Source of the DNA: a virus
Length of the DNA: 64,000 bases
IMG/VR virus record: IMGVR_UViG_3300005329_000012
Span: 1-64,000 of that record
Strand: one strand, 5' to 3'
Shown here piece by piece: positions 2,160 through 57,263 of the stretch. A program made the translations under genes and the position numbers. Each line of letters opens with the position of its first letter. The stretch's first letter is position 1. The notes under the pieces are model-generated. The model was given only the letters and a program-made list of their open reading frames with translations. It searched no databases and was not told the origin of the DNA.

Positions 2160-4118
2160 ATGGCGACCCTTGTCACCCCGCAGAACGAGGTCTACCAGCG
2201 GCTCCTCGCGCTCGGGTGGGACCTCAAGCGGATCGACTTCAAGGGCGGCCAGTACGTCGCCCGCGGCTCAAACGACGACGCCGGGCTGGAGGTCGAGCGC
2301 ACGGGCAAGACGCCCGAGCAGGCGCTCCTCGGCGTGTTCACCTACGCCCAGCGCGCCGCGGAGATCAGGCGGTTCGCCGCTCTGAGGAGGCTCGGCGCCT
2401 GGCAGGCCGACTTCACCTCGCAGAAGTCGGAGATCGCCAAGGCGTACCGCGCGCTCCCCGCGTTCGACGCGGGCGCGATCGACGCCTGGACGGCGCTCGC
2501 GGCCGAGAGCAAGGCGCAGGCCGACGCCGTGCGCAAGCAGATCCAGGTCTCCTACGAGGACGACCCCGAGCCGTACGACAGCGCGCGCGAGATGGCCGAC
2601 GACGTGAAGCTGCGGCAGAAGCTCACCGTCTCCCGCTTCGGGCTCGACCACCCGGTCTGGACGCCCGAGCAGGTGCTCGACTTCAGGACCGTGCACGACG
2701 CGGTCGGCCATGTGCAGAGCGGCGGCGACTTCACCTGGCGCGGCGAGAACATGGCCTTCGCGACCCACGCCCCGCTCGTGTCCCCGCTCGCGCAGGAGGC
2801 GCTGTTCGTGGAGGTCCTCGGCAGGGCCGCCTACAACGACGACTTCCGCGGCGTCGGCCCCGAGAAGGTCGGCCTCATGACCGAGTTCCTCAGGCCCGCG
2901 CAGGCGGCCGAGGGGCACCACGTCGGCGTCCCGCACGGCACCATGGCCGTCCCCTACCAGGACGAGCAGGCCCAGCGCGAGGCGGACGAGAACGCCCGCC
3001 AGCGCGCGGTCTACGACCAGCAGGTGCTCAAGGACCTGCCGAAGGGTCCGTTCGACCTCCCCTCCGTCTCGGACGGTTGGAAGGCGAAGCCGCGCCCGGC
3101 GTTCAAGCCGCGCCGCGGCGTCTACGACTGGGCCGCCGACCCGGGCTGGAGGACCGCCGACACCGCCGTCGACCGCCTGAGGGAGATCCACGGCGACCTC
3201 CCGGCCGACCCCGACTACGGCGACCTCGCGTACCAGCCGGACGAGCGCAAGGTGTACTGGAACGTGGGCGACGGCTACCCGCAGGACGCGATCGACGAGG
3301 GCACGCGCCGCTTCGAGGCCGACCCGGGCGTCGACTCGGTCGAGGTCGCCGACGAGGGGCCGCACGTCCCCGGCGGCTGGGTCAGCGTCGCCATGCCGGT
3401 CGTGCGCCCGCAGTACGTGGACCAGGCCCTCCAGGCCATCCACCCGGACGAGCTGCACCAGGGCGAGTGGAAGGCGGCCGAGGGCACGCACTGCCCGAAC
3501 CCGAAGTGCCCGCACGTGCTCACGCCGGACGAGGAGGCGCAGATCCAGCAGACCGGGTACTTCACCTGCCCGGAGTGCCACGGCGAGTTCAACATGATGG
3601 AGGACGAGGGCTGGACCCGCGCCGGGCTCGGCCTGACGCAGATGGGCTGGATCGGCGAGCAGGCGGTCCTCGACCAGGGGACGATCCCCGGCCTCGGGAC
3701 CTTCCGCGCCGCCCACTCGGGCGGGAAGTGGCCCATCGACGCGATCCTCGACGGCGAGGACGGCGTGGCCTACGGCTGCGAGATCAAGAGCAACCACTCA
3801 CAGGCGCAGGAGCGGTTCAAGGTCGGCAAGAAGGAGGAGCGCGACAGGAAGATCGCCTACTGCCTCGCACACGGGCTCCAGCCCGCGCTGGTGGGCGTCC
3901 GCCTCAACTTCTACACCGACGCGGCCGACGTGTTCTTCCGGCCCGGCCTGACCGACACCTGGATCGGCAACAGCCAGATGCGCCACGTGGCGACGCTCGA
4001 CTTCTCGAAGCTGAACCCGTTCCTCGCCCCGACGCCGCAGGCCCAGGCCGAGGCCGTCGAGGGCGCCGACATCCCCGACCAGTCGCTCCAGACGGAGGAC
4101 GACGACATCCCGTTTTGA
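2160..4118 (+). CDS. Multidomain protein: HDxxGH domain, Zn ribbon, PD-(D/E)xK nuclease, SSB-like acidic tail
   Basis: FRTVHDAVGH...GE...E; CPNPKC...CPEC; GWIGE...PIDA...EIKS; ends EDDDIPF. Confidence 0.75.
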   Translation: MATLVTPQNEVYQRLLALGWDLKRIDFKGGQYVARGSNDDAGLEVERTGKTPEQALLGVFTYAQRAAEIRRFAALRRLGAWQADFTSQKSEIAKAYRALPAFDAGAIDAWTALAAESKAQADAVRKQIQVSYEDDPEPYDSAREMADDVKLRQKLTVSRFGLDHPVWTPEQVLDFRTVHDAVGHVQSGGDFTWRGENMAFATHAPLVSPLAQEALFVEVLGRAAYNDDFRGVGPEKVGLMTEFLRPAQAAEGHHVGVPHGTMAVPYQDEQAQREADENARQRAVYDQQVLKDLPKGPFDLPSVSDGWKAKPRPAFKPRRGVYDWAADPGWRTADTAVDRLREIHGDLPADPDYGDLAYQPDERKVYWNVGDGYPQDAIDEGTRRFEADPGVDSVEVADEGPHVPGGWVSVAMPVVRPQYVDQALQAIHPDELHQGEWKAAEGTHCPNPKCPHVLTPDEEAQIQQTGYFTCPECHGEFNMMEDEGWTRAGLGLTQMGWIGEQAVLDQGTIPGLGTFRAAHSGGKWPIDAILDGEDGVAYGCEIKSNHSQAQERFKVGKKEERDRKIAYCLAHGLQPALVGVRLNFYTDAADVFFRPGLTDTWIGNSQMRHVATLDFSKLNPFLAPTPQAQAEAVEGADIPDQSLQTEDDDIPF

Positions 4119-4123
4119 CCGCT

Positions 4124-4780
4124 ATGATCGAGGACATGTTCGACGGCGGCCACAGGCGCGTCTCGCGCCAGGTCGAGGCCCTCGGCTGGAAGGACCTCGC
4201 GGTCCCGGCCGCCGGGCTCGCGCTCATGGCGCCGTTCGCCAACCCGCCCTCGGCCCAGGCCGCGCCGTCCGCCAAGGCCCCGATCCACCGCGTGGCCCCG
4301 AAGAAGAAGGTCGCCCCCAAGCCGAAGCCCGTCACGGCGCAGCAGGCGTGGGCGCAGATGAGCGCCGCCGCGGCCTACATCGCGGGCCGCCCGGTGGAGC
4401 TGCGCCGGGAGACGCCCGAGTTCATCCGCGACAACGTGGGCTGGGCCAACGCCTACGTCGTGCTCGACGGGACGACCACGGTCCATGTCGGCCCGACCAT
4501 CGCGGGCTACATGGACTACCCCAACTCGGGGACGTTCTCGATGGGCGTCGCGGAGCTGATCCACGAGGCCACGCACCTGAAGCTGTTCTTCGAGGACGGC
4601 GGCCCGCAGGCGGCGCCGAACTCCTACACTCGCGCGGCCGACGAGTCCGTGACCAACCGCGCGGCCATCGCCATGGCGCCCGACATCTTCAAGCGGTTCT
4701 TCCCGTGGGTCAACCCGACCGCGGTCCAGTACGGCATCAACCGCGGCCTGCTCGAACTGACGCCGCCGCAGTACCACTAG
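4124..4780 (+). CDS. Putative zincin metallopeptidase with internal signal-peptide-like segment
   Basis: ELIHEATH plus downstream DE; hydrophobic stretch ending SAQA; 3' part of ORF 1736..4780. Confidence 0.7.
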   Translation: MIEDMFDGGHRRVSRQVEALGWKDLAVPAAGLALMAPFANPPSAQAAPSAKAPIHRVAPKKKVAPKPKPVTAQQAWAQMSAAAAYIAGRPVELRRETPEFIRDNVGWANAYVVLDGTTTVHVGPTIAGYMDYPNSGTFSMGVAELIHEATHLKLFFEDGGPQAAPNSYTRAADESVTNRAAIAMAPDIFKRFFPWVNPTAVQYGINRGLLELTPPQYH

Positions 4781-4828
4781 CGTTCATGACGTTCCGCCCC
4801 CGTCGGTAACGGCCGAAGATTAATCTTA

Positions 4829-5326
4829 ATGGCGGACGAGCCGATCATCCTGGAGGAGACTAGGCTTCCGGGCGGCATGACCCGCTGGGCGCCCGCGGGC
4901 GTCGAGAGGCCGCGGGAGCTAACGCCGCAGGAGAAGATCGCGCTGGAGCGCAGGGACGCGCTCCTCACGCAGAAGGCCGAGAGTCGCGAGCCGACGTGCT
5001 GGCGGCACGACTGCGACAGGCCCGCGACGGTCTGGGTCCGGGAGGTCTCGTTCGACTTCAAGGGCGAGAGGGCCGAGCCCCTGCACCACACGGCCGTGTC
5101 GAGCGCCGACTACTCCGGCCCCGTGCCGGGCTTCTGCCGCTTCCACCTGGGGACCGGCCCCTCCGAGCTGGCGCAGGCCGTGTACTTCTCGCGCCCCGAG
5201 ATGTACTGGGGCGTCCGGCCGAACAGGTGGTTCGTGAGCTTCACCGACGGCACCAAGCAGGGCGGCGCGGCCGTCAGCATCGACCCGAAGCAGGAGTCGC
5301 CGAAGATCGTACAGGAGTCGCTATGA
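4829..5326 (+). CDS. Hypothetical protein, possible Zn finger
   Basis: CWRHDC...FCRFH. Confidence 0.7.
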   Translation: MADEPIILEETRLPGGMTRWAPAGVERPRELTPQEKIALERRDALLTQKAESREPTCWRHDCDRPATVWVREVSFDFKGERAEPLHHTAVSSADYSGPVPGFCRFHLGTGPSELAQAVYFSRPEMYWGVRPNRWFVSFTDGTKQGGAAVSIDPKQESPKIVQESL

Positions 5327-5502
5327 CCGAGAAGCACTGGACCCACGTCACCGGCCTGAACCAGAGCGCCCCGCAGCCCGCGTCGCACCTGTGCAACTGC
5401 ATCGGCTGCTGCCGCGAGTGCGGCATGTGCCGCACCGACCCGAGGCACACGCCCGACCTGTGCAAGCGCACGGTCGCGTGGCTCCAGGAGCGGCCCAGGT
5501 GA
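5323..5502 (+). CDS. Small Cys-rich protein
   Basis: HLCNCIGCCRECGMC...H...C; ATGA overlap. Confidence 0.65.
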   Translation: MTEKHWTHVTGLNQSAPQPASHLCNCIGCCRECGMCRTDPRHTPDLCKRTVAWLQERPR

Positions 5503-5747
5503 GGCGCCTGCTCTACGGGCCGCCGAACTGGCTCGTCAACAAGTTCAGCTCGGAGGACCGGCGCGCCTTCGGCTTCTGGTCGGTCGTCTTCGCCATCGCC
5601 GGGACGCCGTTCCTCGGCTCGCAGGTCCTCTGGGTCTCCCTCCTGAGCGTGATCGCCCTGGTGCCCAACTTCACCAGCGAGACGCCGGTCGAGGTCGAGG
5701 AGAAGGACAAGCGCGAGATCAAGAAAGCGGCCGGATCAAGCGCGTAA
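5499..5747 (+). CDS. Small membrane protein
   Basis: Two hydrophobic segments, charged C-terminus; GTGA overlap. Confidence 0.7.
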   Translation: MRRLLYGPPNWLVNKFSSEDRRAFGFWSVVFAIAGTPFLGSQVLWVSLLSVIALVPNFTSETPVEVEEKDKREIKKAAGSSA

Positions 5748-5753
5748 AGGGCA

Positions 5754-6038
5754 ATGGCCGAGAAGAAGACAGCCAAGAAGAAGGACCAGAGCGGCCGTGT
5801 CGCGGTGCTCCTGACGCACGTCAACATCCCGCTCGTGCTCAGGGCCAACCCGACCGAGGAGGAGGTCCTCGGCTTCGTGAAGGAGCAGAACCGGCGCTAC
5901 CACAACGGCGACCCCGGCGGCCCGAGCGGCCTCCCGGCGGTCCTGGTGCGCGAGGCCGCGTTCTTCGACGAGGAGTCCCCGACGGACGAGTACGACTTCG
6001 AGAAGGGCGAGCGGATCGACCTGGAGTCGGCCCTCTAA
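5754..6038 (+). CDS. Hypothetical protein
   Basis: ORF track; promoter-like motif immediately upstream. Confidence 0.75.
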   Translation: MAEKKTAKKKDQSGRVAVLLTHVNIPLVLRANPTEEEVLGFVKEQNRRYHNGDPGGPSGLPAVLVREAAFFDEESPTDEYDFEKGERIDLESAL

Positions 6039-6067
6039 AGGGCCGCCCTTCCGCGCGGTAACAGGCG

Positions 6068-6541
6068 ATGGCCAGCATCATCTGGAACAAGGGCGAGCGC
6101 AGCGTCGTAGACGGCTGGCTCGGCGGGCAGAGCAACTACCTCACCCCCGCGATCGTCCCCACGGCGGGCGCGAACTGGGGCCTCGGCCTCGGCTCCCGGG
6201 TGGGCGGCGTCGGCGCGACCAAGGCCGACGTCATGGCGCAGATCCTGGAGATCGGCACCGCGACCCCGGCCGGGTACGCGCGCGCGTCCATCTCCCGCGA
6301 CCAGACCGCTGGCGGCTGGCCCGCCTCGACCCTCCAGAGCGGCAGCTACGCCTCCACGACGGCCCAGAAGTCCTTCAACTTCTCCGGCGCCCCGAGCCCG
6401 AACGGCGCGACCCTCTGGTTCGTCGCTGGCTCGACGACGACCAACCAGGACAACGCGCTGTTCGGCGCCGACACGGCGGCCACCCGCACGTTCGGCAACG
6501 GCGACATCGAGCGCGTCACGCCCACCTACAAGCAGACCTAG
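6068..6541 (+). CDS. Putative virion structural protein (fibre-associated)
   Basis: G/A/T/S-rich, GYARASI...W...F pattern, precedes fibre gene. Confidence 0.65.
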   Translation: MASIIWNKGERSVVDGWLGGQSNYLTPAIVPTAGANWGLGLGSRVGGVGATKADVMAQILEIGTATPAGYARASISRDQTAGGWPASTLQSGSYASTTAQKSFNFSGAPSPNGATLWFVAGSTTTNQDNALFGADTAATRTFGNGDIERVTPTYKQT

Positions 6542-6580
6542 TCCCCGCTTCCGGGCGGTATCGACCGCGTAAGTGGCGAG

Positions 6581-7741
6581 ATGACGACGAACTACCCCGG
6601 CGCGCTCGACACCACGGCCGTCCTCAAGAACGACGCGACGGACGGCACCGTCACCCAGGTCACGCACGCGCAGCAGCACAACAACGTCGCCGACGCGATC
6701 ATCGCCGTCGAGACGGAGCTGGGCGCGAACCCCAGCGGCGGCTTCGCCACCGTCGCCGCAGCGATCGCGACGCTGGACCCGAGCAGCGGCGGCTTCGTCG
6801 CCAGGAGCCCCGGCGCCGGGCAGGTGGTCCTCCCGACCGCCGACGTGCTCGCGCTGGCCGTGCGCGCCTTCAACGCGGGCCAGACGTCGCTCCTGTTCGA
6901 GGCGCAGAACGCCGCGGGCTCGACCGTCCTCTACATCGACAAGCTCGGCAACTTCAGCGCCACGAGCCTGGCGGTCGGCGGCACCCCGCTCGCCTCGACC
7001 CACCTTAGCGACTCGGCCGCGCTCGCGCGCCTCGCCTCGCCGACCCTCACGGGCGACCCGAAGGCGCCGACCCCCGCGACCTCGGACAACGACACGTCCA
7101 TCGCCACGACCGCCTACGTCAAGGCGCAGGCGTACGCGACGCTCAACAGCCCCACGTTCACCGGCACCCCGGCCGCGCCGACGGCCGCGGGCGGCACGAA
7201 CACGACGCAGATCGCCACGACGGCGTTCGTCCAGGCCGCGCTCTCTGGCGTCGTGTCGGTGCGGACGTCTTCGTTCCCGGTCGACCTCCGCAACCCGGAC
7301 AACACGGGCAACGCCTGGCCGCGGGTCGAGACCATGACGGCGTGGGAGTCGTACTACTGGGGGCTCACCAACGACGTGGTCGGCTCGGTCTACGGCCTCG
7401 TCCGGGTCCCCGAGAACCTGGCGGGCACCCCGGCCGCCAAGATCGCCATCGAGATCAGCTCCAGCGCCACGACCGGCGTCACCAGCATGGCGGTCGCGAC
7501 GGCGTCCGTCCCGGACGGCTCGTCGCTCAACCCGGCGTCGCTCGCCTTCGAGACCACGCAGAACGTCACCACGCCCGCGACGGCCCACGCTCGCAAGAAG
7601 GTCACGTTCACGCTGACCACGCCCCCGGCCGCCGGGGACCTGATGATCGTGCGCGTCTACCACGCGGGCACGGACGGCTCCGACACGCTGGCCGTCCCCA
7701 CGAGGCTGCACGGCGCCTGGCTCGTCTGTGACGTGACGTAA
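6581..7741 (+). CDS. Tail/head fibre protein with fibre repeats
   Basis: Two copies of SPTxTGxPxAPT...TxIATTAxV. Confidence 0.8.
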   Translation: MTTNYPGALDTTAVLKNDATDGTVTQVTHAQQHNNVADAIIAVETELGANPSGGFATVAAAIATLDPSSGGFVARSPGAGQVVLPTADVLALAVRAFNAGQTSLLFEAQNAAGSTVLYIDKLGNFSATSLAVGGTPLASTHLSDSAALARLASPTLTGDPKAPTPATSDNDTSIATTAYVKAQAYATLNSPTFTGTPAAPTAAGGTNTTQIATTAFVQAALSGVVSVRTSSFPVDLRNPDNTGNAWPRVETMTAWESYYWGLTNDVVGSVYGLVRVPENLAGTPAAKIAIEISSSATTGVTSMAVATASVPDGSSLNPASLAFETTQNVTTPATAHARKKVTFTLTTPPAAGDLMIVRVYHAGTDGSDTLAVPTRLHGAWLVCDVT

Positions 7742-7750
7742 GGAGGCGGC

Positions 7751-8431
7751 ATGGCTTTTCAGGTGAGCGGAACGGGCGGCGGCTACGCGGGCGGCGACAT
7801 CCTGCGCCTGAACGTCTTCACCATCTCGGCCTGGCTCTACGGCTCGAACGGCAACCCGCTGTCGAACGGCTTTGTCGCGGGGCGCCAGGCCACCACCGCC
7901 AGCGGCTCGATGCAGTACGCGCTCGCGACGCCCGGCGGCCTCCAGTGCATCGTCGCGAACCACGAGCTGTCCCAGAACTGGGGCACGGCCTTCCAGTCGT
8001 GGGGCGGCAGCGCGGGCGCCTGGTACCACGTGTACGGGTGGCACGACGGGAGCACCATCTTCGCCAGCCTGAAGCAGCTGGGCGGGTCGCAGGGCACGGC
8101 CAGCGCCTCGCACGGCACCGCCGCGCTGGACGTCTCGGGCGAGTTCACGATCGGCGACAACGGCGGCAACTCCTGGACCTACTCGCCCGGCGCGATCGCG
8201 GAGGTCGCGGTCTGGAACGTGGTCCTGAACGCGAACGAGCTGGCGTCGCTCGACGCGAAGATCCCGCCCACGAAGATCAGGCCGCAGAGCCTCGTCGGCT
8301 ACTGGCCGTGCTACGGGCGCACGTCCGAGTCGAACCAGGCGACCTCCTCGTCGCGCGAGGGCACGGCCATGAACCAGCGGTTCGGCGGCGCGGTGGTCGA
8401 CATCGGGCGCCACGCCCCCGTCGGCCGCTAG
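7751..8431 (+). CDS. LamG/concanavalin-A-like domain protein
   Basis: FTISAW, WYHV, FTIG, GAIAEVAVWN.VL, LVGYW; SD aggagg. Confidence 0.8.
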   Translation: MAFQVSGTGGGYAGGDILRLNVFTISAWLYGSNGNPLSNGFVAGRQATTASGSMQYALATPGGLQCIVANHELSQNWGTAFQSWGGSAGAWYHVYGWHDGSTIFASLKQLGGSQGTASASHGTAALDVSGEFTIGDNGGNSWTYSPGAIAEVAVWNVVLNANELASLDAKIPPTKIRPQSLVGYWPCYGRTSESNQATSSSREGTAMNQRFGGAVVDIGRHAPVGR

Positions 8432-8625
8432 TGGCCGAGGTCTACAACATGGTCGCGCGCGTCCGCCGCGACGACCTCGCGGGCGCGGACATCCGCGTCT
8501 CCAGCGCGTACCAGGGCCGCGAGCTACAGATCACGTTCCAGGACGAGAGCCCGGCCAACGTGGCCCGGGCCATCGACGCCATGATCAGGGCGCTCGTCGT
8601 GGCCCGCCGGGCCGTCAAGTCCTAG
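8431..8625 (+). CDS. Small hypothetical protein
   Basis: GTG overlapping TAG of upstream gene. Confidence 0.55.
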   Translation: MAEVYNMVARVRRDDLAGADIRVSSAYQGRELQITFQDESPANVARAIDAMIRALVVARRAVKS

Positions 8626-8940
8626 CTAGGACCAGAACCCGAAGCGGTCCGTCTCCTTCTGGCCGCACCGCTTGCAGGTGCGCTGCCGGATCTTCACGGC
8701 GCGGTGGCCCGTGTGCGCCCACGAGCGGCCCCACACGCGGCGGACCTCCTCGCGGAGCACGACGGGCTCGCCCCACCTGTGCACGTGCTTCTTCCTGCGC
8801 CTGCGCGCGCCGCGCCGGGGGACCTCCTCCTCCGGCGCGAGCGGCATCTGGCGGTAGGCCCTGCGGGCGATGCCGTCCTGGGACCAGGACGACGGGTCGC
8901 TCTTGAGGGCCTTCGCCTCGCGGTCGGACCGGCGGATCAC
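8626..8940 (-). CDS. Basic hypothetical protein with HxH...CxxC
   Basis: HVHRW...CKRCG; GTGA overlap with upstream small gene. Confidence 0.65.
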   Translation of the reverse strand: MIRRSDREAKALKSDPSSWSQDGIARRAYRQMPLAPEEEVPRRGARRRRKKHVHRWGEPVVLREEVRRVWGRSWAHTGHRAVKIRQRTCKRCGQKETDRFGFWS

Positions 8941-9113
8941 CGCCAGCACCTTCCGATGTGGGAGTTGCGCGAGCGCGACGACTCGCACGTGACGATCTTG
9001 TAGCAGTTGGGGCAGCGCCCCGTGGTCCGCTCGACGCCGTCCCGCTTCATCGTGGCGGCGCGTTCACGGTCCCTCTGCGCGCGGCGCTTCGCAGCGCCCT
9101 GCTCGCTGGACAT
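8937..9113 (-). CDS. 58-aa Zn-finger protein (not in ORF track)
   Basis: Manual translation MSSEQGAAKRRAQRDRERAATMKRDGVERTTGRCPNCYKIVTCESSRSRNSHIGRCWR; SD aaaggag. Confidence 0.7.
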   Translation of the reverse strand: MSSEQGAAKRRAQRDRERAATMKRDGVERTTGRCPNCYKIVTCESSRSRNSHIGRCWR

Positions 9114-9225
9114 GCATGGCTCCTTTCCAGGCTAGGGTATCTAGCCTATCTGGTAGTCACGCATGTCACCTCCCTCGGGTCGCATCGCACCCATTATCGG
9201 GACCGAAGCGGGGATGTAAAGAGCG

Positions 9226-12200
9226 ATGGAACTCTGGTGGGGACGGGTGGCGGCGGGCGACATGCCCCAGTTCCGCGACCCCGGCGGCGAGGTCTGGACG
9301 TGGGACCCGACCACGCATACGTACGTCAAGCGGCCCGAGAAGGCCATCCCCGACCGCTCGCACGCCTCGGGCGGCGACAACGAGCTGTTTGACCCGGCGA
9401 CGCAGACCGAGCTGCCGAAGAACCCCCTCATGGAGGGTTACATGGCGCGCACGGCCGACTTCGACTTCGGCGGTGAGGCTCCCGAGCCCGACGTCGTGTA
9501 CATGCTCCCGCCCGGCACCGACTGGGTCGTGTGGGAGGACGTGAACGGCGCGCTCAGGACCATGACCGACGAGGAGGTCGTGGAGATGGCCCGGGAGAAC
9601 CTGCGCCAGTTCGGCGGCTCCGACGTCGACCTGCTGCGCCACGACCCCCAGACGCCCGAGCAGGCGTGGGAGGTCATCAACGAGATCTGGGAGGGCGACC
9701 CGGGCGGCCGGGGCTGGCAGCTCCGCGTGCCGCAGGGCGCCCAGTGGGTCCAGATCGAGTTCCCTGGCGAGGACGACCCGCGCTGGGGCGGCGCCGACCC
9801 CCGCGTCGCGCACTTCGGCTCCGGGCAGCCGCCCGCGGGCCTGGAGGTCCGCCAGCCGGACACGGCCGTCTTCGGCGACGAGCAGATGACGGACGCCCTC
9901 AAGGAGATCGACCGCCACCTGAACCCGGACGACAGGCCCGGCGACACGACGTTCCCCGAGCACTGGGGAGCGGCCTTCGCCGAGCCCGGCCAGGTCCTCT
10001 GCCCGAACTGCCAGACGTCGACCGAGTTGCCCCAGTGCCCCCAGTGCGGCAAGGGGCTCAAGCCCGAGTGGGACAAGCGCGGGGAGACCGACCCGAACGA
10101 GACCGACTTCGCGGGCCAGGTCGTGAGGCACCCAGACGGCATGCCCGACCGCGCGCCCAAGCGCAACCGCATGAAGACGGACGACACGTACCCGAGCATG
10201 CTGTCGTCCTGGAGGCCGCGCCCCGGCGAGAAGGTGCACCTGCTCGGCCAGGAGACCGTGACCGGGACGTACATGGGTCCTGCGAACCTCGGCGGCGGCA
10301 CGATGGCGTCCGTCCTCTGGGACTCGGGCGACCGGAGCCCGGTGGCGTACGCCCAGCTGACGTCCGGCCCCGCCGCGCCGGACAGCATGGGCGTATACCC
10401 GGTCGCCAAGCAGGCGGCCGACGACTGGGGCCTCGACGCCTTCAGCGACCGGACCGAGGTCGGCAAGTGGATCCAGGACGTCACCGGCCAGCTCCACGCG
10501 ACCGCGGACTACGGCGGCGAGAACCACGAGCAGCTCGCGCAGGAGTGGGGCCTGGACTGGAACAGCGACATCGGCGCGCTCGGCTCGGTCTTCGACGACG
10601 GCTCGGCCGACACGCAGTGGGTCAAGCAGGGCTTCCAGTTCGACCCGAAGGCGGTCGAGCCCAACCTCCAGTCGATCTTCCAGCAGCCGCTCGGAGGCAA
10701 GCTCGTGCACCTGAACCCGCCCGCGGGCGAGGCGCAGCAGAAGGAGGACGCCTTCCAGCCGTTCGAGATCAGGGCGGGCCAGTGGATCTTCCCGCCCGGC
10801 GTCCCCGCGGCGACCGGCGTCGCGTGGGTCAAGGAGCGCAGCGACGGCGTCCAGTTCCGGCCCGGCATGGTCCTGGTCGCGGAGCACCTTCAGCCCGACG
10901 ACTTCCACCTGTACTCGCAGCGCCCGGCCGCGATCATCACCGCCACGGGCGGCTCGACCTCGCACGCCGCGCTCATCGCGCGCGAGCAGGGGTGGCCGGT
11001 CGTGATCGGCATCGGCGGCGACGCCTACAGCAAAATCGAGACCGGCAACTACGTAAAGGTTGACAACGCGGGGCAGACGACGAACCCGCGAACAATCACA
11101 GTGATGCCCACGCCAAACCAGCAGAACTCACAGTCGGTCTGGGACTCCATCCTGAGGTACCGCCAGGACCAGGAGCGAAACCAGCCCTCCCTCAGGCCGT
11201 CCCTCCCGGGCGCCTTCGGGGGCCTCGTCCAGGCCGTCGCGGCCCGGGTGGCCGCCGCCCCCTCCCTCGACTCGTGCCCCGACTGCGGCGGCCCGCTGAC
11301 GGAGCGCGGCGACGAGAAGATCTGCCACGACTGCGGCACCAGGCAGCCGATCATCGCGCTCAGGGCGGCCACGGCCGCCGTCAAGGCGCCGATGGTCAAC
11401 AGCGCGACCGGCGAGCCCTTCGAGGGTCTCCTGGTCGTCGCGTCCGTGCACGGCCAGGGCGTCGGCTACCTCGTGGGCGAGCCGTACGGCGAGGGCTACC
11501 GCACCGACTACATCTACGTCGACCCGTCCTTCCGGCGCGGCGGCATCGGCAAGCAGCTCGCCGCCACCGCGCGCGAGAACGGCCTCATCCCCTACGTCAC
11601 CCAGCCCGACCAGGTCTACAGCGACTCCGGCGCGGCCCTCGCGGGCGCGCTCTACGGCCACCACTCGCTCTCGCGCACCGCGCGCAGGGCGGTCGGCGGA
11701 CCGGCGCTCGCCGTACCGGCCGAGGCGCTCCTCGGCGGCGGTGCCGCCGCTGGCGGCGCTGCGGGCGGCGGCGGCCTCATGGCCGGTCTCATGGGCGGCG
11801 GCGAGGGCGTCAGTGGCATCGGCGGCCTGATGCGCGGCGCGATGAACCCCGGCAGCTTCCTCCAGGGCCAGGGCCTCAGGAGCCTCATCCCGGGCCAGGG
11901 AGGCCCGGCAGGCCCGAGCCCGAACGCGAGCGTCCCGCCGGAGGGTCCGACGGGCGCGGGCACGTTCGCGCACTTCCTCTACGCCGACACGTTCGGCGAG
12001 GAGGAGACCGGCAGGGCCACCAAGAACCGCGGGGAGAACAGCGACCCCGACACCGCTTCGAGCACCGGCATCGAGGGCGAGAAGGAGCACGGCGACTCGC
12101 CCGAGCAGCTCAAGGACGTGGACGGCGGCCCCGCGAAGGGCATGTCCGACGCCACGGACCCGTACGGCGACCCCGACCACTGGAGCGACGAGCAGAAGGA

Positions 12201-14052
12201 CGCCGTCCGCGCCTTCGAGGTCAACCTCCCGCTCATCCAGGACTTCGCGGAGAGCGAGGACTCGGGCGCCGACCACCCGATCATCCAGGCGATCGACGCG
12301 ATGCTGGAGGACGCTTTCCCCGGCTACAAGGAGCTGGGAGACGGAGGAGAGGAGCCGGATGGTGAACAGGTGGAGTCGCTTGAGGAGCTTTCAGGAAAGG
12401 ATCTCGACGGCGACGACGAGGCTGGAGAGGGCGAGGAGCACAAGGACGCCGTACAGGAAGGTCCCGATGAGGATGAGGACGAGGAAGACGAGCTGAGCAA
12501 GCTCGGCGGCGCCCCGGTCGTGGACATGGGCGGCTACGGGATCATCGACCCGTACTCGCGCCCCGGCCAGGGCGGCGGGCAGCTCGGCGAGATGGGCCTG
12601 GTGACGGACGCCCAGGGCAACGTCGTCGGGCAGTTCATCCGCCACAACGACAACGGCACGATCAAGATCCTGACCGGCGAGGGCTACAAGGACGTGGACC
12701 CGCGCTCGGTCACGGTCCAGAAGGCCGCGAGCGAGCTGTTCCGGCACGCCGACTTCGCCCCGCCGTTCGGCAACGACGCGCAGCAGACGCCTCCCGTCAC
12801 GGGAGTGCCGACCTGCCCGACGTGCGGCCAGAACCACATGCCGGGCACGCCGTGCCCGACGGGCGGCGTCCAGCAGCCCCAGGCGCAGCCGATGGTCGGC
12901 ATGCAGCCGATGGTGCAGCCGGGCGTCCAGCCCAAGGTCGTGACGCACGCGACCGAGTCGCACATCGCCAAGTGGGCCGACACGGAGGGCAACCCCCTCA
13001 AGGTCGGCGCCGACTACGAGCTTCGCTCCCCCGGCTACGCTGTCCCCGACTACGTCGTCGTGGACCACGTCCTGCCGGACAAGCTGGTCTACACGATCAC
13101 GTCCGGCGACATGAAGTACCGGGACAGCCTCACGGCGAAGGAGGTCCGCACCCAGGGCCTTGAGTTCGCCCCGAAGGTCGAGGGGCCGACCTCGAAGGAC
13201 GGCTTCGAGGCAACCGCGGCGCACGGGGACTTCCCCGACGACGGCGGCTTCGCCCCGGGCCTCGGCCCCGACGCCGACCTGCCGATGGAGCTTCCCGAGG
13301 ACTTCCCGCTCGTCTGCCCGAACTGCGGCGGCGGCGCCAGGGCTGGCGCCACGGCCTGCCCGCACTGCGGCTCGCGCGACATCAAGCCCGGCATCGAGAG
13401 CCCGATCTACGACGAGGCCCCGGTCAGGCCCGGAGCCGACCCGATCCCCCAGGTGGACGACCTGACCGAGCCCCCGACCAGGGTGAGCACGGCGATCATC
13501 CCGGGCCAGGGGCAGGGCGGCGCCTACCCCGACGCGGGCCATCTCGCGGAGTGGGAGGCGGCGACCCGCAACCAGAGCGACGCCGAGCTGAGGCAGATGA
13601 TCTCCTCGGGCAAGCTCAGTCCCGAGGCCGTGGCCTTCGTGCAGCAGAAGCTCCAGGAGCGCGCGCGCATGCAGCCGCAGCGCCCGAGCTACCGCGAGAC
13701 GCTCCAGGACCAGGCGGGCCGCGGCCTGCCGATGGGCCAGTACTACCCGCCCGGCGACCCGCGCAGGACGCAGGGCTCCGCCGAGCCCGAGGCGTTCGAG
13801 GGCCTGGAGGACTACACCGGCTCGTTCAAGGGCGACAGCCCGGACGACCGCTCGTGGCTCATGGAGGGCTCGCCCGGGCAGGGCGTGGACGTGGACCCGG
13901 CCCTGATGGCGAAGCTGGCGGGCAAGGACTTCTCGCCGCGCGAGCAGCGCGAGTTCATCGACGAGAGCGGCGAAGCCCGCAACCTGGGCAAGCTCGACCT
14001 CGACGGCACGCACTACATCGCTGACGAGACCGACAGCGCCTTCAACTGGTAG
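9226..14052 (+). CDS. 1608-aa multidomain polyprotein (Zn ribbons, PEP-utiliser phosphohistidine domain, GNAT)
   Basis: GGSTSHAALIARE.G.PVVIG; YVDPSFRRGGIGKQL; several CxxC pairs; C-terminal FSPREQREFIDE...ARNL..LDL.GTHY. Confidence 0.85.
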   Translation: MELWWGRVAAGDMPQFRDPGGEVWTWDPTTHTYVKRPEKAIPDRSHASGGDNELFDPATQTELPKNPLMEGYMARTADFDFGGEAPEPDVVYMLPPGTDWVVWEDVNGALRTMTDEEVVEMARENLRQFGGSDVDLLRHDPQTPEQAWEVINEIWEGDPGGRGWQLRVPQGAQWVQIEFPGEDDPRWGGADPRVAHFGSGQPPAGLEVRQPDTAVFGDEQMTDALKEIDRHLNPDDRPGDTTFPEHWGAAFAEPGQVLCPNCQTSTELPQCPQCGKGLKPEWDKRGETDPNETDFAGQVVRHPDGMPDRAPKRNRMKTDDTYPSMLSSWRPRPGEKVHLLGQETVTGTYMGPANLGGGTMASVLWDSGDRSPVAYAQLTSGPAAPDSMGVYPVAKQAADDWGLDAFSDRTEVGKWIQDVTGQLHATADYGGENHEQLAQEWGLDWNSDIGALGSVFDDGSADTQWVKQGFQFDPKAVEPNLQSIFQQPLGGKLVHLNPPAGEAQQKEDAFQPFEIRAGQWIFPPGVPAATGVAWVKERSDGVQFRPGMVLVAEHLQPDDFHLYSQRPAAIITATGGSTSHAALIAREQGWPVVIGIGGDAYSKIETGNYVKVDNAGQTTNPRTITVMPTPNQQNSQSVWDSILRYRQDQERNQPSLRPSLPGAFGGLVQAVAARVAAAPSLDSCPDCGGPLTERGDEKICHDCGTRQPIIALRAATAAVKAPMVNSATGEPFEGLLVVASVHGQGVGYLVGEPYGEGYRTDYIYVDPSFRRGGIGKQLAATARENGLIPYVTQPDQVYSDSGAALAGALYGHHSLSRTARRAVGGPALAVPAEALLGGGAAAGGAAGGGGLMAGLMGGGEGVSGIGGLMRGAMNPGSFLQGQGLRSLIPGQGGPAGPSPNASVPPEGPTGAGTFAHFLYADTFGEEETGRATKNRGENSDPDTASSTGIEGEKEHGDSPEQLKDVDGGPAKGMSDATDPYGDPDHWSDEQKDAVRAFEVNLPLIQDFAESEDSGADHPIIQAIDAMLEDAFPGYKELGDGGEEPDGEQVESLEELSGKDLDGDDEAGEGEEHKDAVQEGPDEDEDEEDELSKLGGAPVVDMGGYGIIDPYSRPGQGGGQLGEMGLVTDAQGNVVGQFIRHNDNGTIKILTGEGYKDVDPRSVTVQKAASELFRHADFAPPFGNDAQQTPPVTGVPTCPTCGQNHMPGTPCPTGGVQQPQAQPMVGMQPMVQPGVQPKVVTHATESHIAKWADTEGNPLKVGADYELRSPGYAVPDYVVVDHVLPDKLVYTITSGDMKYRDSLTAKEVRTQGLEFAPKVEGPTSKDGFEATAAHGDFPDDGGFAPGLGPDADLPMELPEDFPLVCPNCGGGARAGATACPHCGSRDIKPGIESPIYDEAPVRPGADPIPQVDDLTEPPTRVSTAIIPGQGQGGAYPDAGHLAEWEAATRNQSDAELRQMISSGKLSPEAVAFVQQKLQERARMQPQRPSYRETLQDQAGRGLPMGQYYPPGDPRRTQGSAEPEAFEGLEDYTGSFKGDSPDDRSWLMEGSPGQGVDVDPALMAKLAGKDFSPREQREFIDESGEARNLGKLDLDGTHYIADETDSAFNW

Positions 14053-14075: not shown

Positions 14076-14861
14076 ATGGCGCCCCGTTGGAGCAACCCGT
14101 CCGGAGAGCGAGGCGGCCGGAGGTTCAGGGTCTGGCCCGACGGGGCGGACCACTACAACCACTCCGAGCACACCGCGAACTGGGACATGATCGACGCCAT
14201 CATCGGCGTCCCCGAGGACGGCTCCGAGTGGCCGACGACGACAGGCGTCGACGGCGGCATCTACCAGGAGGTCCAGGCGCTCCAGCTCACGACCCTGCCG
14301 CTCGGCATGGTCATCCCGTGGTTCAGGGTCTCCGCAGGCGTGCCGGTCCCCGGCGCGTTCGAGGTATGCGACGGCCGGACCATCACCCAGGCCAGCCACG
14401 ACTTCGGCGCCATCGGCTCCATCACCCTCCCCGACATGAGGAACCGCTTCGCGCTCGGGGCCTCGGCGGCCAAGTCGATCGGCGACCCCGCCGTCGCGTA
14501 CGACCACGCCGACGTCAACACCGCGGCGGGCGCGCCCGGCCCGCAGGGGCTCGGCGGCTCGAACACGCAGACCCTCACGGTGGCCCAGATGGCCGCCCAC
14601 ACCCACTCGGGCAGCAAGACCGGCTGGGGGCCGCACGGGCTGTACTACGGGTACCAGACGCCGCTCAACACGGCCGACTACGACATCGTGCGGGGACCCG
14701 GCGGCGGCATGCAGCCCGACTCGGGCGACGGCGGCTGGGAGGTCGGGCGGCACCGGCACATCATCAACAGCCTCACGCCGGTCGGCGCGGGGACCGCGCA
14801 CGAGAACCGGCCGAGGCACTACGGCCTGATCTTCCTGGCGAAGGTGAGGCACGGTGGCTGA
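14076..14861 (+). CDS. Tail-collar domain fibre protein, paralogue 1
   Basis: PLGMVIPW...CDG...LPDMRNRF..GA; HxH motifs; HENRP. Confidence 0.85.
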   Translation: MAPRWSNPSGERGGRRFRVWPDGADHYNHSEHTANWDMIDAIIGVPEDGSEWPTTTGVDGGIYQEVQALQLTTLPLGMVIPWFRVSAGVPVPGAFEVCDGRTITQASHDFGAIGSITLPDMRNRFALGASAAKSIGDPAVAYDHADVNTAAGAPGPQGLGGSNTQTLTVAQMAAHTHSGSKTGWGPHGLYYGYQTPLNTADYDIVRGPGGGMQPDSGDGGWEVGRHRHIINSLTPVGAGTAHENRPRHYGLIFLAKVRHGG

Positions 14862-15759
14862 CCGCTGGAGCAACCCGTCCGCGGGCGAGGGCGTCAACAG
14901 GTTCCGCGTCTGGCCGCTGGCGACCGACAGCTACGACAGCGACGAGTTCGCGGCCAACTGGGACAAGCTGGACGCGATCCTCGGCTACCCGCTGGAGGGC
15001 ACCTGGCCGCCCACGCTCGGCGTCGGCGGCGGCATCTACCGCGAGATCGAGATCGCCAAGGACGCGGCGGTCCCGCTCGGCGTCGTCTTCCCGTGGTACC
15101 GCCCGCACTCGTCCATCGCCCTGCCCTCGGGCGCGGTCCCGTGCGACGGCTCGGCCATCACGGCCGCGAACCACAGCTTCCCCGGCGGCGGCACCATCAC
15201 CGTCCCGGACCTCCGCAACGCCTTCGTGCTCGGCGCCGACGCCAGCAAGGCCGCCGGGGCCGCGGCGGCCGCGGCGGGCACCCCGGCCGCGGACACGGCC
15301 GCTGGCGCCCCCGGCCCGCAGGCGACGGGCGGCTCCAACGCGGTCGCCATGACCAAGGACTCGCTCCCGCTGCACAAGCACACGGGGAGCCTCACCGGCT
15401 GGTCGCCGAGGCTCCTGGACTACTTCAACCAGGGCGGCTGGAACGGCGCGACCTACGCGGAGCAGACCGCCAACAACTACCAGGTGCTCGACAACCGCGA
15501 CGAGGCCATCGCGCAGTGCGGCCCGCCGGGCTGCTACTGGTCCCCCGACAACTTCGGCCCGGTGATCACCGCGGTCGGCAACTTCGAGTACCAGGGCGCG
15601 GGCGGCTCCAACGCCTCCGCGGGCGCGGGCGGCTGGGACGACGGCCAGGACCGCCACTCCCTCGGCGCGCTGTCGAGCGAGGGGTCGGGCGCCGCGCACG
15701 AGAACCGGCCGCAGTACGTCGGCCTGATCTGGCTCGTGAAGGTGAAGGTGAGCGACTGA
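14854..15759 (+). CDS. Tail-collar domain fibre protein, paralogue 2
   Basis: Same motifs as paralogue 1, longer tip segment. Confidence 0.85.
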   Translation: MADRWSNPSAGEGVNRFRVWPLATDSYDSDEFAANWDKLDAILGYPLEGTWPPTLGVGGGIYREIEIAKDAAVPLGVVFPWYRPHSSIALPSGAVPCDGSAITAANHSFPGGGTITVPDLRNAFVLGADASKAAGAAAAAAGTPAADTAAGAPGPQATGGSNAVAMTKDSLPLHKHTGSLTGWSPRLLDYFNQGGWNGATYAEQTANNYQVLDNRDEAIAQCGPPGCYWSPDNFGPVITAVGNFEYQGAGGSNASAGAGGWDDGQDRHSLGALSSEGSGAAHENRPQYVGLIWLVKVKVSD

Positions 15760-20661: not shown

Positions 20662-21717
20662 ATGACTCTCACAGCACGCACCGCGAAGTCCTCCGAGGAC
20701 TACGTCGAGAAGCTCGCCTCGCTGCCGAAGCTCACCAAGGCCGAGAAGCAGCAGCGCCTCGCGACGATCCTCGCCGACAAGGCCAGCGGCATGCACCGCC
20801 TCGGCCAGGGCATGATCGGCCCCATCCAGATCCGCCTGCGGTACGAGGGCATGGTCCGCAACGTCCTCCTGGAGGACACGCTGGAGCGCGGCCCGCTCAT
20901 GCCGTACGACATCCTCGACGACCTGGGAATGGCCTACATCCTGAACTCCACGGATGCCGAGGTCAAGATCCAGATGTTCGAGGGCAAGCAGGCGTTCCCC
21001 GCCCTGTTCCGCATCGCGTCGTTCCCGAAGATCCGCAAGGAGGATCTGTACTACCTTCGGGTCAACGCCGTCGAGTACGCGCAGGACGAGTCCCGCCAGG
21101 CCATCCAGAAGCAGGAGGACTACAAGCTCATCCAGCTCCTGGAGACCGCGATCGTCGAGCATGGCGCTGCCGGGCAGACCCCGGTCGGCGGCATCGCGAC
21201 GGGCATCTCGGCCGGTCCTTCCACGGACCTCACCGAGAAGACCGTCCTCGTCGGCGCGAACAACCCGCTGGAGCCGGTGGACTTCTACAGCGCGGTCTCG
21301 ATGATCGAGATCGAGCAGCTGGAGGCGTCCAGGGTTCTCGCTCACCCGCAGGACATCCGCGACCTCTACACCTGGGACATCAACGTCACGGGCTGGAGCT
21401 TCAAGGACAAGGTCTTCGCGGGCGAGAAGATCACCAGCTTCGGTGAGTTCCAGGTCCAGAAGTCGGTCATGGTCCCGCAGGGCGAGACCTTCCTGACCGC
21501 GGACCCGGAGTTCGTGGGCGTCTTCCCGGTGATGTACTCCCTCGACGTCGAGGAGAACCACCAGGTCGAGCAGTTCCACAAGGGCTGGGTCATGGACGAG
21601 CTGGTCGGCATGATGATCCTGAACGCCAGGGGCATCGCGCGAGTCCGCAAGGACGACGACAACAGCCCGGACAGCGGCATCGTCACCAACATCGCGGAGC
21701 GCGGCCTCTACACCTAG
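20662..21717 (+). CDS. Major capsid protein
   Basis: LGQGMIGPIQIRLRYEG, FRIASFPKI, AIQKQED, GWVMDE; size, position, strong terminator after. Confidence 0.9.
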   Translation: MTLTARTAKSSEDYVEKLASLPKLTKAEKQQRLATILADKASGMHRLGQGMIGPIQIRLRYEGMVRNVLLEDTLERGPLMPYDILDDLGMAYILNSTDAEVKIQMFEGKQAFPALFRIASFPKIRKEDLYYLRVNAVEYAQDESRQAIQKQEDYKLIQLLETAIVEHGAAGQTPVGGIATGISAGPSTDLTEKTVLVGANNPLEPVDFYSAVSMIEIEQLEASRVLAHPQDIRDLYTWDINVTGWSFKDKVFAGEKITSFGEFQVQKSVMVPQGETFLTADPEFVGVFPVMYSLDVEENHQVEQFHKGWVMDELVGMMILNARGIARVRKDDDNSPDSGIVTNIAERGLYT

Positions 21718-57218: not shown

Positions 57219-57263
57219 GTCGGCAACAGGCCGACTCAAGCTCCGAGCGAGGCAGGGAACGAA

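What the first reader, a model, noticed from the sequence alone, without database searches (positions are those of the whole stretch)
10760..11105. PEP-utiliser phosphohistidine swivel domain isolated inside a phage polyprotein
Seen: ATGVAW...GMVLVAEHLQPD...AAIITATGGSTSHAALIAREQGWPVVIG...GNYVKVD with His at 10963-10965. Established: this is the mobile domain of PPDK, PEP synthase and PTS enzyme I; the Thr two residues before the His is the regulatory phosphosite in PPDK/PEPS. No ATP-grasp or PEP-binding barrel is recognisable in this protein or window. Inference: a phosphoryl sink, decoy or relay that taps host PTS or PEP metabolism.
Basis: partly seen in the sequence, partly recalled or inferred. 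Interest (0 to 1): 0.75.

Follow-up and report, generated by a model that had tools for sequence, protein, structure and literature searches.

The report
Lone phosphohistidine carrier in giant phage protein
A soil phage related to the large mycobacteriophages carries, inside a 1608-residue modular protein encoded beside its head genes, a real and conserved copy of the phosphate-carrying "swivel" domain of PEP synthase/PTS enzyme I, with none of the partner domains that normally load or unload it, so it probably works with host enzymes, though this is untested.

Summary
Residues 513-632 of the 1608-aa ORF at window 9226-14052 (+) are a true PEP-utiliser mobile domain: Pfam PF00391 E 4e-16, and fold Z 13.4 / 12.6 / 11.7 to the pyruvate kinase C-domain, rifampin phosphotransferase and enzyme I.

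At least 27 giant proteins (1140-1691 aa) from uncultured phages share it. Ser579-His580-Ala581 are invariant in all of them. The PPDK-type regulatory Thr578 is kept in only 12 of 27.

No ATP-grasp, PEP-binding barrel, HPr or PSRP gene was found in this 89.5-kb record or in a 93%-complete 150-kb relative.

The swivel domain always follows a confidently folded ~90-residue alpha/beta domain with no detectable structural relative. The pair forms a cassette between two zinc ribbons. Backbone homologues with the same N- and C-terminal modules lack the cassette, so it is optional cargo on a modular carrier.

The carrier sits just upstream of the prohead protease and major capsid genes. Its last ~45 residues are shared with the "LysM" proteins in the same slot of 218 cluster-C-type actinophages.

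Best reading: a late or virion-associated multi-effector whose phosphohistidine carrier acts with host PEP-dependent enzymes. Delivery and phosphotransfer are inferred only. I found no published description.

The parts
9226..14052 (+). Whole ORF, 1608 aa (P0001): modular giant protein of the head-gene block
   Evidence: Single open frame with GC3 0.96. About 27 full-length relatives of 1140-1691 aa.
9259..9453 (+). Conserved N-terminal module (aa 12-76) of the carrier backbone
   Evidence: Conserved in alignment A1. Also present in swivel-less backbone proteins P0028, P0030, P0032 and P0033.
9466..9930 (+). Variable insert (aa 81-235), a mobile module
   Evidence: Occupancy below 0.35 in A1. 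40% identical to the C-terminus of the otherwise unrelated P0034.
9973..10215 (+). Zinc ribbon 1 plus basic motif (aa 250-330)
   Evidence: Pfam DZR at aa 254-282. Invariant Cys259, 262, 271 and 274.
10438..10740 (+). Upstream alpha/beta domain of the cassette (aa 405-505); invariant E411, G413, W415, H434, G453, S454, A461, D462
   Evidence: Modelled alone: pLDDT 86.5, pTM 0.76. No convincing structural relative: best VIA Z 4.6, Foldseek PDB E 0.2 or worse, BFVD E 0.016 or worse.
10762..11121 (+). PEP-utiliser phosphohistidine swivel domain (aa 513-632); His580 at 10963-10965
   Evidence: S579, H580 and A581 are invariant in 27 of 27.
11122..11370 (+). Two helices plus zinc ribbon 2 (aa 633-715)
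   Evidence: Model helices and a beta ribbon. Invariant Cys684, 687, 700 and 703.
11398..11655 (+). GNAT acetyltransferase domain (aa ~725-810), optional module
   Evidence: Pfam PF13508 E 9.5e-7 and PF00583. Present in 4 of 27 relatives and in the swivel-less P0029.
11689..11865 (+). Gly/Ala/Met-rich mildly hydrophobic segment (aa 822-880)
   Evidence: Sequence and hydropathy. Conserved as composition in A1. Function unknown.
11968..12345 (+). Conserved acidic module (aa 915-1040) of the backbone
   Evidence: A1 conservation 0.64-0.76. Present in 11 of the 13 swivel-less relatives tested.
12793..13185 (+). Zinc ribbon 3 plus small beta-rich module (aa 1190-1320)
   Evidence: A1 invariants. 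Present in 12 of the 13 swivel-less relatives tested.
13816..14049 (+). Conserved C-terminal module (aa 1531-1608); its last ~45 aa are shared with cluster-C 'LysM' proteins
   Evidence: The most conserved block of A1, 0.88. hhalign to Myrna gp96 gives prob 94%, and to Quasimodo gp97 prob 95%. My HMM hits the extreme C-termini of Myrna gp96 and E3 gp76. tblastn finds it in 218 phage records.
17473..19920 (+). Prohead protease fusion protein (context)
   Evidence: phrog_2774 E 1.5e-69 and phrog_18299 head maturation protease.
20662..21717 (+). Major capsid protein (context)
   Evidence: phrog_2522 E 3e-97. 56% identical to Myrna, Phabba, Finch and E3.

Best explanation
The swivel domain is one half of a conserved two-domain cassette: a novel ~90-aa alpha/beta domain followed by a phosphohistidine carrier. 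The cassette is inserted between two zinc ribbons of a giant modular carrier protein. That carrier is encoded in the late head-gene block of a lytic, cluster-C-like actinophage. It has fixed N- and C-terminal modules and swaps internal modules (swivel cassette, GNAT, others), which is the pattern of phage 'polyvalent' multi-effector proteins. The phage encodes no ATP-grasp loader, no PEP/pyruvate barrel and no HPr. The carrier histidine (His580) must therefore be charged and discharged in trans by host PEP-dependent enzymes of the PEP synthase / PPDK / enzyme I type. It would act as a phosphoryl acceptor that diverts or relays phosphate, with the upstream domain possibly holding the target. 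Shown here: the domain identity, the invariant Ser-His, the absence of phage-encoded partners, the modularity and the synteny. Inferred only: phosphorylation, the host partner, and delivery with the virion.
For: Domain and fold. S579, H580 and A581 are invariant across 27 relatives that are only 40-55% identical to the window protein overall, which argues for selection on the phospho-acceptor site. No PPDK_N, PEP-utilizers_C, HPr or PSRP in the own record or in the 93%-complete 150-kb relative G001. The one weak ATP-grasp_4 hit in G001 lies in a baseplate-J-like protein. No other conserved module of the protein is long enough for an ATP-grasp or TIM barrel, and a profile of the whole family finds only swivel domains and zinc ribbons in the PDB. 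The cassette is optional: none of the 13 more distant relatives (P0028-P0040) has a swivel module, and P0028, P0030, P0032 and P0033 keep both the N- and C-terminal modules; in P0028 and P0030 zinc ribbon 1 runs straight into zinc ribbon 2. GNAT is also optional. The slot is syntenic in G001 and in Myrna, E3 and Quasimodo, where a large protein with the same C-terminal motif precedes the prohead protease and capsid genes. GNATs are recurrent domains of polyvalent proteins (PMC5512222).
Against: There is no experimental or structural evidence that the protein is in the virion or enters the host. MuF and the other hallmark packaging domains of polyvalent proteins were not detected. The canonical Arg of the ...SHAAxxAR motif is kept in only 5 of 27 members, and family-specific invariant residues (H554, D559) appear, so the docking surface may not fit canonical PpsA/PPDK/EI partners. 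The host is unknown. The own record is only 56% complete and just one near-complete relative could be scanned. Free-standing swivel proteins and non-phosphotransfer uses of the fold are known.
Confidence: 0.4

Rival explanations
1. The swivel domain has a regulatory or protein-binding role rather than a phosphorelay role. It would act like the C-terminal PEPut domain of Bacillus pyruvate kinase, the best structural match. That domain has no loader of its own, modulates the enzyme it is attached to, and is reported to affect replication initiation. In this reading the Ser-His motif is a regulatory site or a binding surface on a host protein.
For: The top fold match is the pyruvate kinase extra C-terminal domain 2e28 (Z 13.4; Foldseek rank 1). 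PMC9009071 reports that PEPut acts as a nutrient-dependent inhibitor of replication initiation and regulates PykA activity. The family has lost the canonical Arg and gained its own invariant residues.
Against: The Z scores for PK, RPH and EI lie within about 2 units of each other, so the fold does not discriminate between them. By sequence the domain is closer to PEP synthases (E 6e-10) than to pyruvate kinase (E 2e-4). An invariant Ser-His across 27 divergent sequences is what a catalytic carrier predicts.
Confidence: 0.2
2. The cassette is the head of a split RPH-type dikinase. The upstream alpha/beta domain binds an acceptor (a small molecule or a protein) and the swivel histidine phosphorylates it. 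The ATP-grasp loader would be a separate protein, either a highly divergent phage gene or a host RPH/PpsA-type ATP-grasp subunit.
For: The 'acceptor domain followed by swivel' order is that of RPH and of two-component dikinases; this lead came from earlier scan notes and I did not verify it in the literature. Outside the phage family, the highest-scoring hits of the swivel query are multi-swivel proteins, and two of the three I scanned carry PPDK_N. The upstream domain always accompanies the swivel (27 of 27) and has an invariant His434.
Against: The upstream domain has ~90 residues against ~430 for the RPH acceptor domain, and it has no fold match to that domain. No ATP-grasp was found in either phage record. 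The cassette occurs only inside these giant phage proteins, never beside a loader gene.
Confidence: 0.15
3. The domain is a structural part of a virion or assembly protein (for example a head-internal, neck or fibre-associated protein) and no longer does phosphoryl chemistry.
For: The gene lies among fibre-like genes and head genes. The protein is mostly made of low-complexity linkers, zinc ribbons and small domains.
Against: Backbone homologues do without the cassette, so it is not needed for any core structural role. The phospho-acceptor motif is invariant.
Confidence: 0.1

Closest known systems
Central phosphohistidine (swivel) domain of PEP synthase / PPDK (PF00391; PDB 8a8e, 2ols, 1dik, 2fm4)
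   Same: Significant sequence match with the GG-x-[TS]-S-H-A-A motif and the same fold.
   Different: No N-terminal ATP-grasp and no C-terminal PEP/pyruvate barrel in the protein or the phage. The regulatory Thr and the canonical Arg are not conserved in the family.
N-terminal alpha/beta subdomain of PTS enzyme I, and the EI-like domain of DhaM
   Same: Same fold (2wqd Z 11.7; NCBIfam DhaM and PtsI hits at E 7e-4 to 5e-3). From established knowledge, DhaM shows that a swivel domain can work without its own PEP-binding domain.
   Different: No HPr-binding helical subdomain, HPr or EIIA module in the protein or the phage.
Extra C-terminal PEPut domain of Bacillus/Geobacillus pyruvate kinase (PDB 2e28)
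   Same: Best structural match (Z 13.4, 29% identity). It too is a swivel domain without loader domains, and it has reported regulatory and moonlighting roles (PMC9009071).
   Different: PEPut is attached to a glycolytic enzyme in a cell, not to a phage carrier protein. Its sequence match to the phage domain is weaker (E 2e-4).
Rifampin phosphotransferase and split RPH-type dikinases
   Same: The swivel domain sits C-terminal to another domain (5hv1 Z 12.6).
   Different: No ATP-grasp. The upstream domain is about five times smaller and shows no detectable relation to the RPH acceptor domain.
Phage 'polyvalent proteins' (Iyer et al. 2017, PMC5512222)
   Same: A large phage protein that combines unrelated domains (swivel, GNAT, zinc ribbons), varies in architecture between relatives, and is encoded among virion genes.
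   Different: No MuF, zincin or other hub domain was detected. The paper never uses the words swivel, phosphohistidine, PPDK or pyruvate. Delivery to the host is unproven.
Cluster C mycobacteriophage 'LysM-like peptidoglycan-binding protein' (Quasimodo gp97, Myrna gp96, Rhodococcus phage E3 gp76)
   Same: Same genomic slot just upstream of the prohead-protease fusion and capsid genes, and the same ~45-aa C-terminal motif.
   Different: Nothing else is shared. The cultured phages carry LysM (Quasimodo) or no recognisable domain (Myrna, E3) instead of the swivel cassette.
Phage 'pyruvate phosphate dikinase / kinase' genes (phrog_18609; for example Stenotrophomonas phage DLP_5, Vibrio and Rhizobium phages)
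   Same: These were the only swivel domains found in cultured or deposited phage records: 41 records at 28-48% identity.
   Different: They are annotated as stand-alone enzymes (PHROG profile of 685 positions), not as modules of a structural-block giant. None of the 41 records is an actinophage.

Membership tests
PF00391 PEP-utilising enzyme mobile (swivel) domain | HMM score above the curated threshold | tested here: met
   58.8 bits against 23.1; 64.8 bits in the six-frame scan. All 27 relatives match.
PF00391 PEP-utilising enzyme mobile (swivel) domain | Swivelling beta/beta/alpha fold | tested here: met
   Model pLDDT above 90. Z 13.4, 12.6, 11.7 and 9.6 to PK, RPH, EI and PPDK. Foldseek E 4e-6.
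PF00391 PEP-utilising enzyme mobile (swivel) domain | Phospho-acceptor His in the GG-x-[TS]-[SC]-H-AA motif | tested here: met
   GGSTSHAA at aa 575-582, aligned to the motif of PEP synthases. S579, H580 and A581 are invariant in 27 of 27.
PF00391 PEP-utilising enzyme mobile (swivel) domain | His is actually phosphorylated | not testable with these tools
   Needs a biochemical assay.
PEP synthase / pyruvate phosphate dikinase | N-terminal ATP-grasp nucleotide-binding domain (PF01326) | tested here: not met
   Absent from the protein, from the own record and from the 93%-complete relative.
PEP synthase / pyruvate phosphate dikinase | C-terminal PEP/pyruvate TIM barrel (PF02896) | tested here: not met
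PEP synthase / pyruvate phosphate dikinase | Regulatory Thr two residues before the His, with a PSRP/PDRP kinase | tested here: not met
   T578 is present here but in only 12 of 27 relatives. No PF03618 in either phage record.
PTS enzyme I | HPr-binding helical subdomain, PEP-binding C-domain and an HPr partner | tested here: not met
   No such Pfam hits in the protein. No PF02896 or PF00381 in either record.
RPH-type / split small-molecule dikinase head | Acceptor-binding domain N-terminal to the swivel | tested here: inconclusive
   A conserved ~90-aa domain precedes the swivel but has no detectable relation to known acceptor domains.
RPH-type / split small-molecule dikinase head | Cognate ATP-grasp loader in the same protein or genome | tested here: not met
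   The single weak hit is a baseplate-J-like protein.
Phage polyvalent proteins (Iyer et al. 2017) | Two or more biochemically disparate domains in one phage polypeptide, with architecture varying among relatives | tested here: met
   Swivel, GNAT and zinc ribbons. The cassette and GNAT are each present or absent among backbone relatives.
Phage polyvalent proteins (Iyer et al. 2017) | Link to virion packaging (MuF or another head-incorporation domain, or a head-gene neighbourhood) | tested here: inconclusive
   The head-gene neighbourhood is conserved, but no MuF or known packaging domain was found.
Phage polyvalent proteins (Iyer et al. 2017) | Delivered into the host with the DNA | not testable with these tools
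   Needs virion proteomics and infection assays.

The most novel reading that the evidence does not exclude
A lineage of large lytic actinophages packages in its head, and ejects with its DNA, a giant carrier protein whose cargo includes a free phosphohistidine carrier. On entry this carrier plugs into the host's PEP-dependent phosphotransfer enzymes (PpsA / PPDK / enzyme I). It would drain or re-route phosphoryl groups at the first moment of infection. That would be a virion-delivered phosphorelay hijacker, a type of takeover effector not yet described.
Probability: 0.15. Interest if true: 0.8.

Novelty: new variant of a known kind. Interest (0 to 1): 0.55.

Why it matters
Phosphohistidine swivel domains are known as the moving arm inside complete enzymes (PEP synthase, PPDK, enzyme I, rifampin phosphotransferase). 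Here the arm alone is conserved, with its catalytic histidine, in at least 27 uncultured phages, and in the two records that could be scanned whole it has no loader or acceptor domain. If it is charged by host enzymes, it would be a new way for a phage to reach into central carbon and PTS signalling. It would also add a new domain class to the repertoire of phage multi-effector proteins. Separately, the work defines a modular carrier family and a ~45-residue C-terminal signature shared with the 'LysM' proteins of 218 cultured cluster-C-type actinophages. Those phages are culturable, so the role of that slot (virion incorporation or not) can be tested directly in Mycobacterium smegmatis phages.

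Tried and rejected
1. No cultured relative. megablast and tblastn of the whole protein against 50,697 deposited phage records found nothing at E 1e-5. Only the C-terminal motif and generic swivel hits appear at relaxed thresholds.

2. No copy in bacterial genomes. A scan of 185,579 species representatives found none, so there is no prophage copy and no host clue.

3. No stand-alone cassette. A search at 133-426 aa found only P0043, a 280-aa protein on a 6-kb contig that may be a fragment.

4. Upstream domain. Fold searches found nothing convincing in the PDB (Foldseek best E 0.2; VIA best Z 4.6) or in BFVD (best E 0.016). Human phosphohistidine phosphatase 2nmm appears at Z 3.9. That is within noise and I give it no weight. 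The ESM Atlas feature search gave no usable hit.

5. Defence link. PADLOC gave no match.

6. ATP-grasp_4. The sub-threshold hit in the relative G001 (12.9 bits) lies in a baseplate-J-like protein and I rejected it.

7. Complex prediction of the C-terminal module (aa 1525-1608) with the major capsid protein returned 'no answer' with score 0.00. This is not evidence either way.

8. Other ORFs of the own genome do not share any of the nine carrier modules.

The 157-223-kb contigs that carry P0004, P0011, P0014 and P0027 could therefore not be scanned for partner genes or synteny.

10. The last Pfam call failed on a coordinate error and I did not repeat it.

11. Literature. Searches for phage together with phosphohistidine, swivel or PEP-utilising enzyme found nothing relevant. 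I found no virion proteomics for the cluster C slot protein.

Full report
**Observation.** The window is the first 64 kb of an 89.5-kb IMG/VR virus record with about 70% G+C and a CheckV completeness of 56%. The finding lies in one long ORF, window 9226-14052 (+), 1608 aa, with a third-position GC of 0.96.
- Pfam places PF00391 (PEP-utilisers, mobile domain) at aa 545-613 with E 4e-16, 58.8 bits against a cut-off of 23.1.
- NCBIfam models for PEP synthase, PPDK, enzyme I, DhaM and RPH all match only this ~90-residue stretch.
- phmmer against PDB sequences aligns aa 524-615 to the central domain of PEP synthases (8a8e, E 6e-10), with the GG-x-T-S-H-A-A motif in register.
- An AlphaFold2 model of aa 240-715, built on a 27-sequence alignment, has pLDDT above 90 over aa 408-654.
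- Its swivel part matches pyruvate kinase 2e28 (Z 13.4, rmsd 2.7 over 107 residues), rifampin phosphotransferase 5hv1 (Z 12.6), enzyme I 2wqd (Z 11.7) and maize PPDK 1vbg (Z 9.6) (Foldseek agrees).

**Is the domain isolated?** Pfam finds four other things in the protein: a double zinc ribbon (aa 254-282), a GNAT domain (aa ~731-797), a further zinc ribbon (aa 1363-1383), and no ATP-grasp or PEP barrel.
- Six-frame searches with PF01326 (PPDK_N) and PF02896 (PEP-utilizers_C) found nothing at E 1 or below. This holds for the own record and for G001, a 150-kb relative that is 93% complete and encodes an orthologue.
- PTS-HPr (PF00381) and the PSRP kinase-phosphatase (PF03618) are also absent from both.
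- A 12.9-bit ATP-grasp_4 hit in G001 lies in a baseplate-J-like protein and is spurious.
- A profile of the whole family finds only swivel domains and zinc ribbons among PDB sequences.
- No other conserved block of the protein is long enough to hide an ATP-grasp or a TIM barrel.

**A conserved family.** The word-indexed protein search returned about 27 proteins of 1140-1691 aa, all with PF00391, from metagenomic contigs of up to 223 kb (Pfam re-check).
- They are 40-55% identical to the window protein in the full-length alignment.
- G575, S579, H580, A581, A585 and P591 are invariant, so the phospho-acceptor site is under selection.
- The canonical Arg of ...SHAAxxAR is kept in only 5 of 27.
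- The family has invariant residues of its own (H554, D559). Its docking surface may therefore differ from that of classical enzymes.

**The cassette.** The swivel domain is always preceded by a conserved block, aa ~405-505, with invariant E411, G413, W415, H434, G453, S454, A461 and D462.
- Modelled alone it folds confidently (pLDDT 86.5, pTM 0.76) as a beta-beta-alpha-beta-beta-alpha-beta domain.
- It has no convincing structural relative: VIA best Z 4.6, Foldseek PDB E 0.2 or worse, BFVD E 0.016 or worse.
- It is therefore not recognisable as HPr, an ATP-grasp or an RPH-type acceptor domain.
- The two-domain cassette occurs essentially only inside these giant phage proteins.

**A modular carrier.** Thirteen further relatives (P0028-P0040) share backbone modules but have no swivel module.
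- The shared modules include zinc ribbon 1, zinc ribbon 2, the acidic module, zinc ribbon 3 with a beta module, and above all the C-terminal module, found in 12 of the 13.
- The N-terminal module is kept in P0028, P0030, P0032 and P0033.
- In P0028 and P0030, zinc ribbon 1 is followed directly by zinc ribbon 2, exactly where the cassette sits in the window protein.
- The GNAT domain is likewise optional: 4 of 27, plus the swivel-less P0029.
- aa 81-235 of the window protein recur at the C-terminus of the otherwise unrelated P0034.

The swivel cassette is therefore dispensable cargo on a carrier, not a structural necessity. This is the architecture pattern described for phage 'polyvalent proteins', in which GNATs are common. 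That paper does not mention swivel or PEP-utiliser domains (PMC5512222).

**Genomic and phylogenetic context.** The window encodes a contractile-tail phage.
- Genes recognised: tail sheath, baseplate J, an NlpC/P60 protein, the major capsid protein and a prohead-protease fusion.
- The capsid protein is 52-57% identical to those of cluster C mycobacteriophages (Myrna, Phabba), Rhodococcus phages Finch and E3, and Gordonia phage Skog.
- The giant gene lies between fibre-like genes. It is three genes upstream of the protease fusion and is followed further on by the capsid gene. G001 has the same order.
- In Myrna (gp96, 1155 aa), E3 (gp76, 'LysM-like', 603 aa) and Quasimodo (gp97, 1271 aa, with a Pfam LysM domain), a large protein sits immediately upstream of the protease fusion.
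- These proteins share with the window family only the last ~45 residues (...AG..YSP.EQ......G.A.NLD.LDL.GTHY). hhalign gives probabilities of 94-95%, my C-terminal HMM gives E 8e-10 and 2e-8, and tblastn finds the motif in 218 phage records.

A conserved tail on an otherwise freely varying protein, next to the head-assembly genes, suggests an incorporation or docking signal. That is inference only. The one complex prediction I ran (tail against capsid protein) gave no verdict, and I found no virion proteomics for this slot.

**Mechanism.** What is shown:
- a catalytically intact-looking phosphohistidine carrier;
- its fusion to an unknown small domain;
- its conservation across the family;
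- its optional, cargo-like placement;
- a phage with no means of charging it.

The simplest reading is that it is charged and discharged in trans by host PEP-dependent enzymes. It would then act as a phosphoryl acceptor or relay, with the upstream domain possibly presenting a target. I give this reading 0.4.

Rivals:
- A regulatory or protein-binding role like the PEPut domain of Bacillus pyruvate kinase. That domain is the top fold match and is reported to regulate PykA and replication initiation (PMC9009071). Confidence 0.2.
- The head of a split RPH-type dikinase whose ATP-grasp loader is undetected or comes from the host. Confidence 0.15.
- A purely structural domain. Confidence 0.1; it is disfavoured because the cassette is dispensable and the Ser-His is invariant.

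**Novelty.** JGI's automatic annotation already labels some members 'phosphohistidine swiveling domain-containing protein', so the domain hit itself is not new.
- I found no paper describing a partner-less swivel domain in a phage structural-block protein.
- In deposited phage records, swivel domains appear only in stand-alone 'pyruvate phosphate dikinase / kinase' genes of Stenotrophomonas, Vibrio, Rhizobium and other phages, never in actinophages.
- Free-standing ~115-aa swivel proteins do exist in metagenomes, so isolation of the domain is not unique in itself.

I rate this a new variant of known kinds: an isolated swivel domain, and a polyvalent-type phage protein.

**Limits.**
- The host is unknown.
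- Model coordinates could not be inspected.
- Nothing about phosphorylation, processing or delivery has been tested.

Noticed in passing
window 13816-14049; L004 (Myrna) 6240-9707; L005 (E3) 6845-8656; L006 (Quasimodo) 3338-7153: A ~45-residue C-terminal motif (...NLD.LDL.GTHY...) is the only thing shared between this giant protein family and the 'LysM' or hypothetical proteins in the same slot of 218 cluster-C-type actinophage records. It may be a head-incorporation or docking signal.
   Followed up: partly
window 20662-21717 and L003 19321-20370: The major capsid proteins of this phage (70% GC) and of the relative G001 (58% GC) are 87% identical. tblastn aligns their giant swivel proteins at only 38% identity in the best segment. 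The carrier evolves much faster than the capsid, despite a 12-point shift in GC.
   Followed up: no
window 9466-9930 (aa 81-235): An insert found in few family members is 40% identical to the C-terminal 155 residues of an otherwise unrelated 1214-aa metagenomic protein (P0034). It looks like another mobile module of unknown function.
   Followed up: no
window 11689-11865 (aa 822-880): A conserved Gly/Ala/Met-rich, mildly hydrophobic segment with a glycine-zipper-like look sits between the effector half and the acidic module. It could be a membrane-active segment or just a linker.
   Followed up: no
window 6581-8431 and 14076-15759: The giant gene is flanked by fibre-type genes. Upstream lie a collagen-like tail-fibre protein and a ConA-like lectin/glucanase-fold protein; downstream lie two paralogous tail-fibre/collar-like proteins. 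All of these sit inside what is otherwise the head-gene block.
   Followed up: no
L004 9743-13378 (Myrna gp97): Myrna gp97 carries a 'tape measure' note in RefSeq. I did not scan gp97 itself.
   Followed up: no
L003 13477-14265: In the relative G001 an endolysin-like gene (phrog_21825, E 8e-26) directly follows the giant swivel gene. The window phage has a fibre-like gene there instead.
   Followed up: no
proteins P0041, P0044, P0047 (metagenomic): Outside the phage family, the highest-scoring hits of the swivel query are proteins with 3-6 tandem swivel domains. P0041 and P0044 also carry a PPDK_N ATP-grasp. They are probably multi-headed dikinases of the kind earlier scan notes described.
   Followed up: partly
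window 54900-57296 (-): A B12-dependent (class II) ribonucleotide reductase with the RNR-II insertion domain is encoded on the opposite strand.
   Followed up: no
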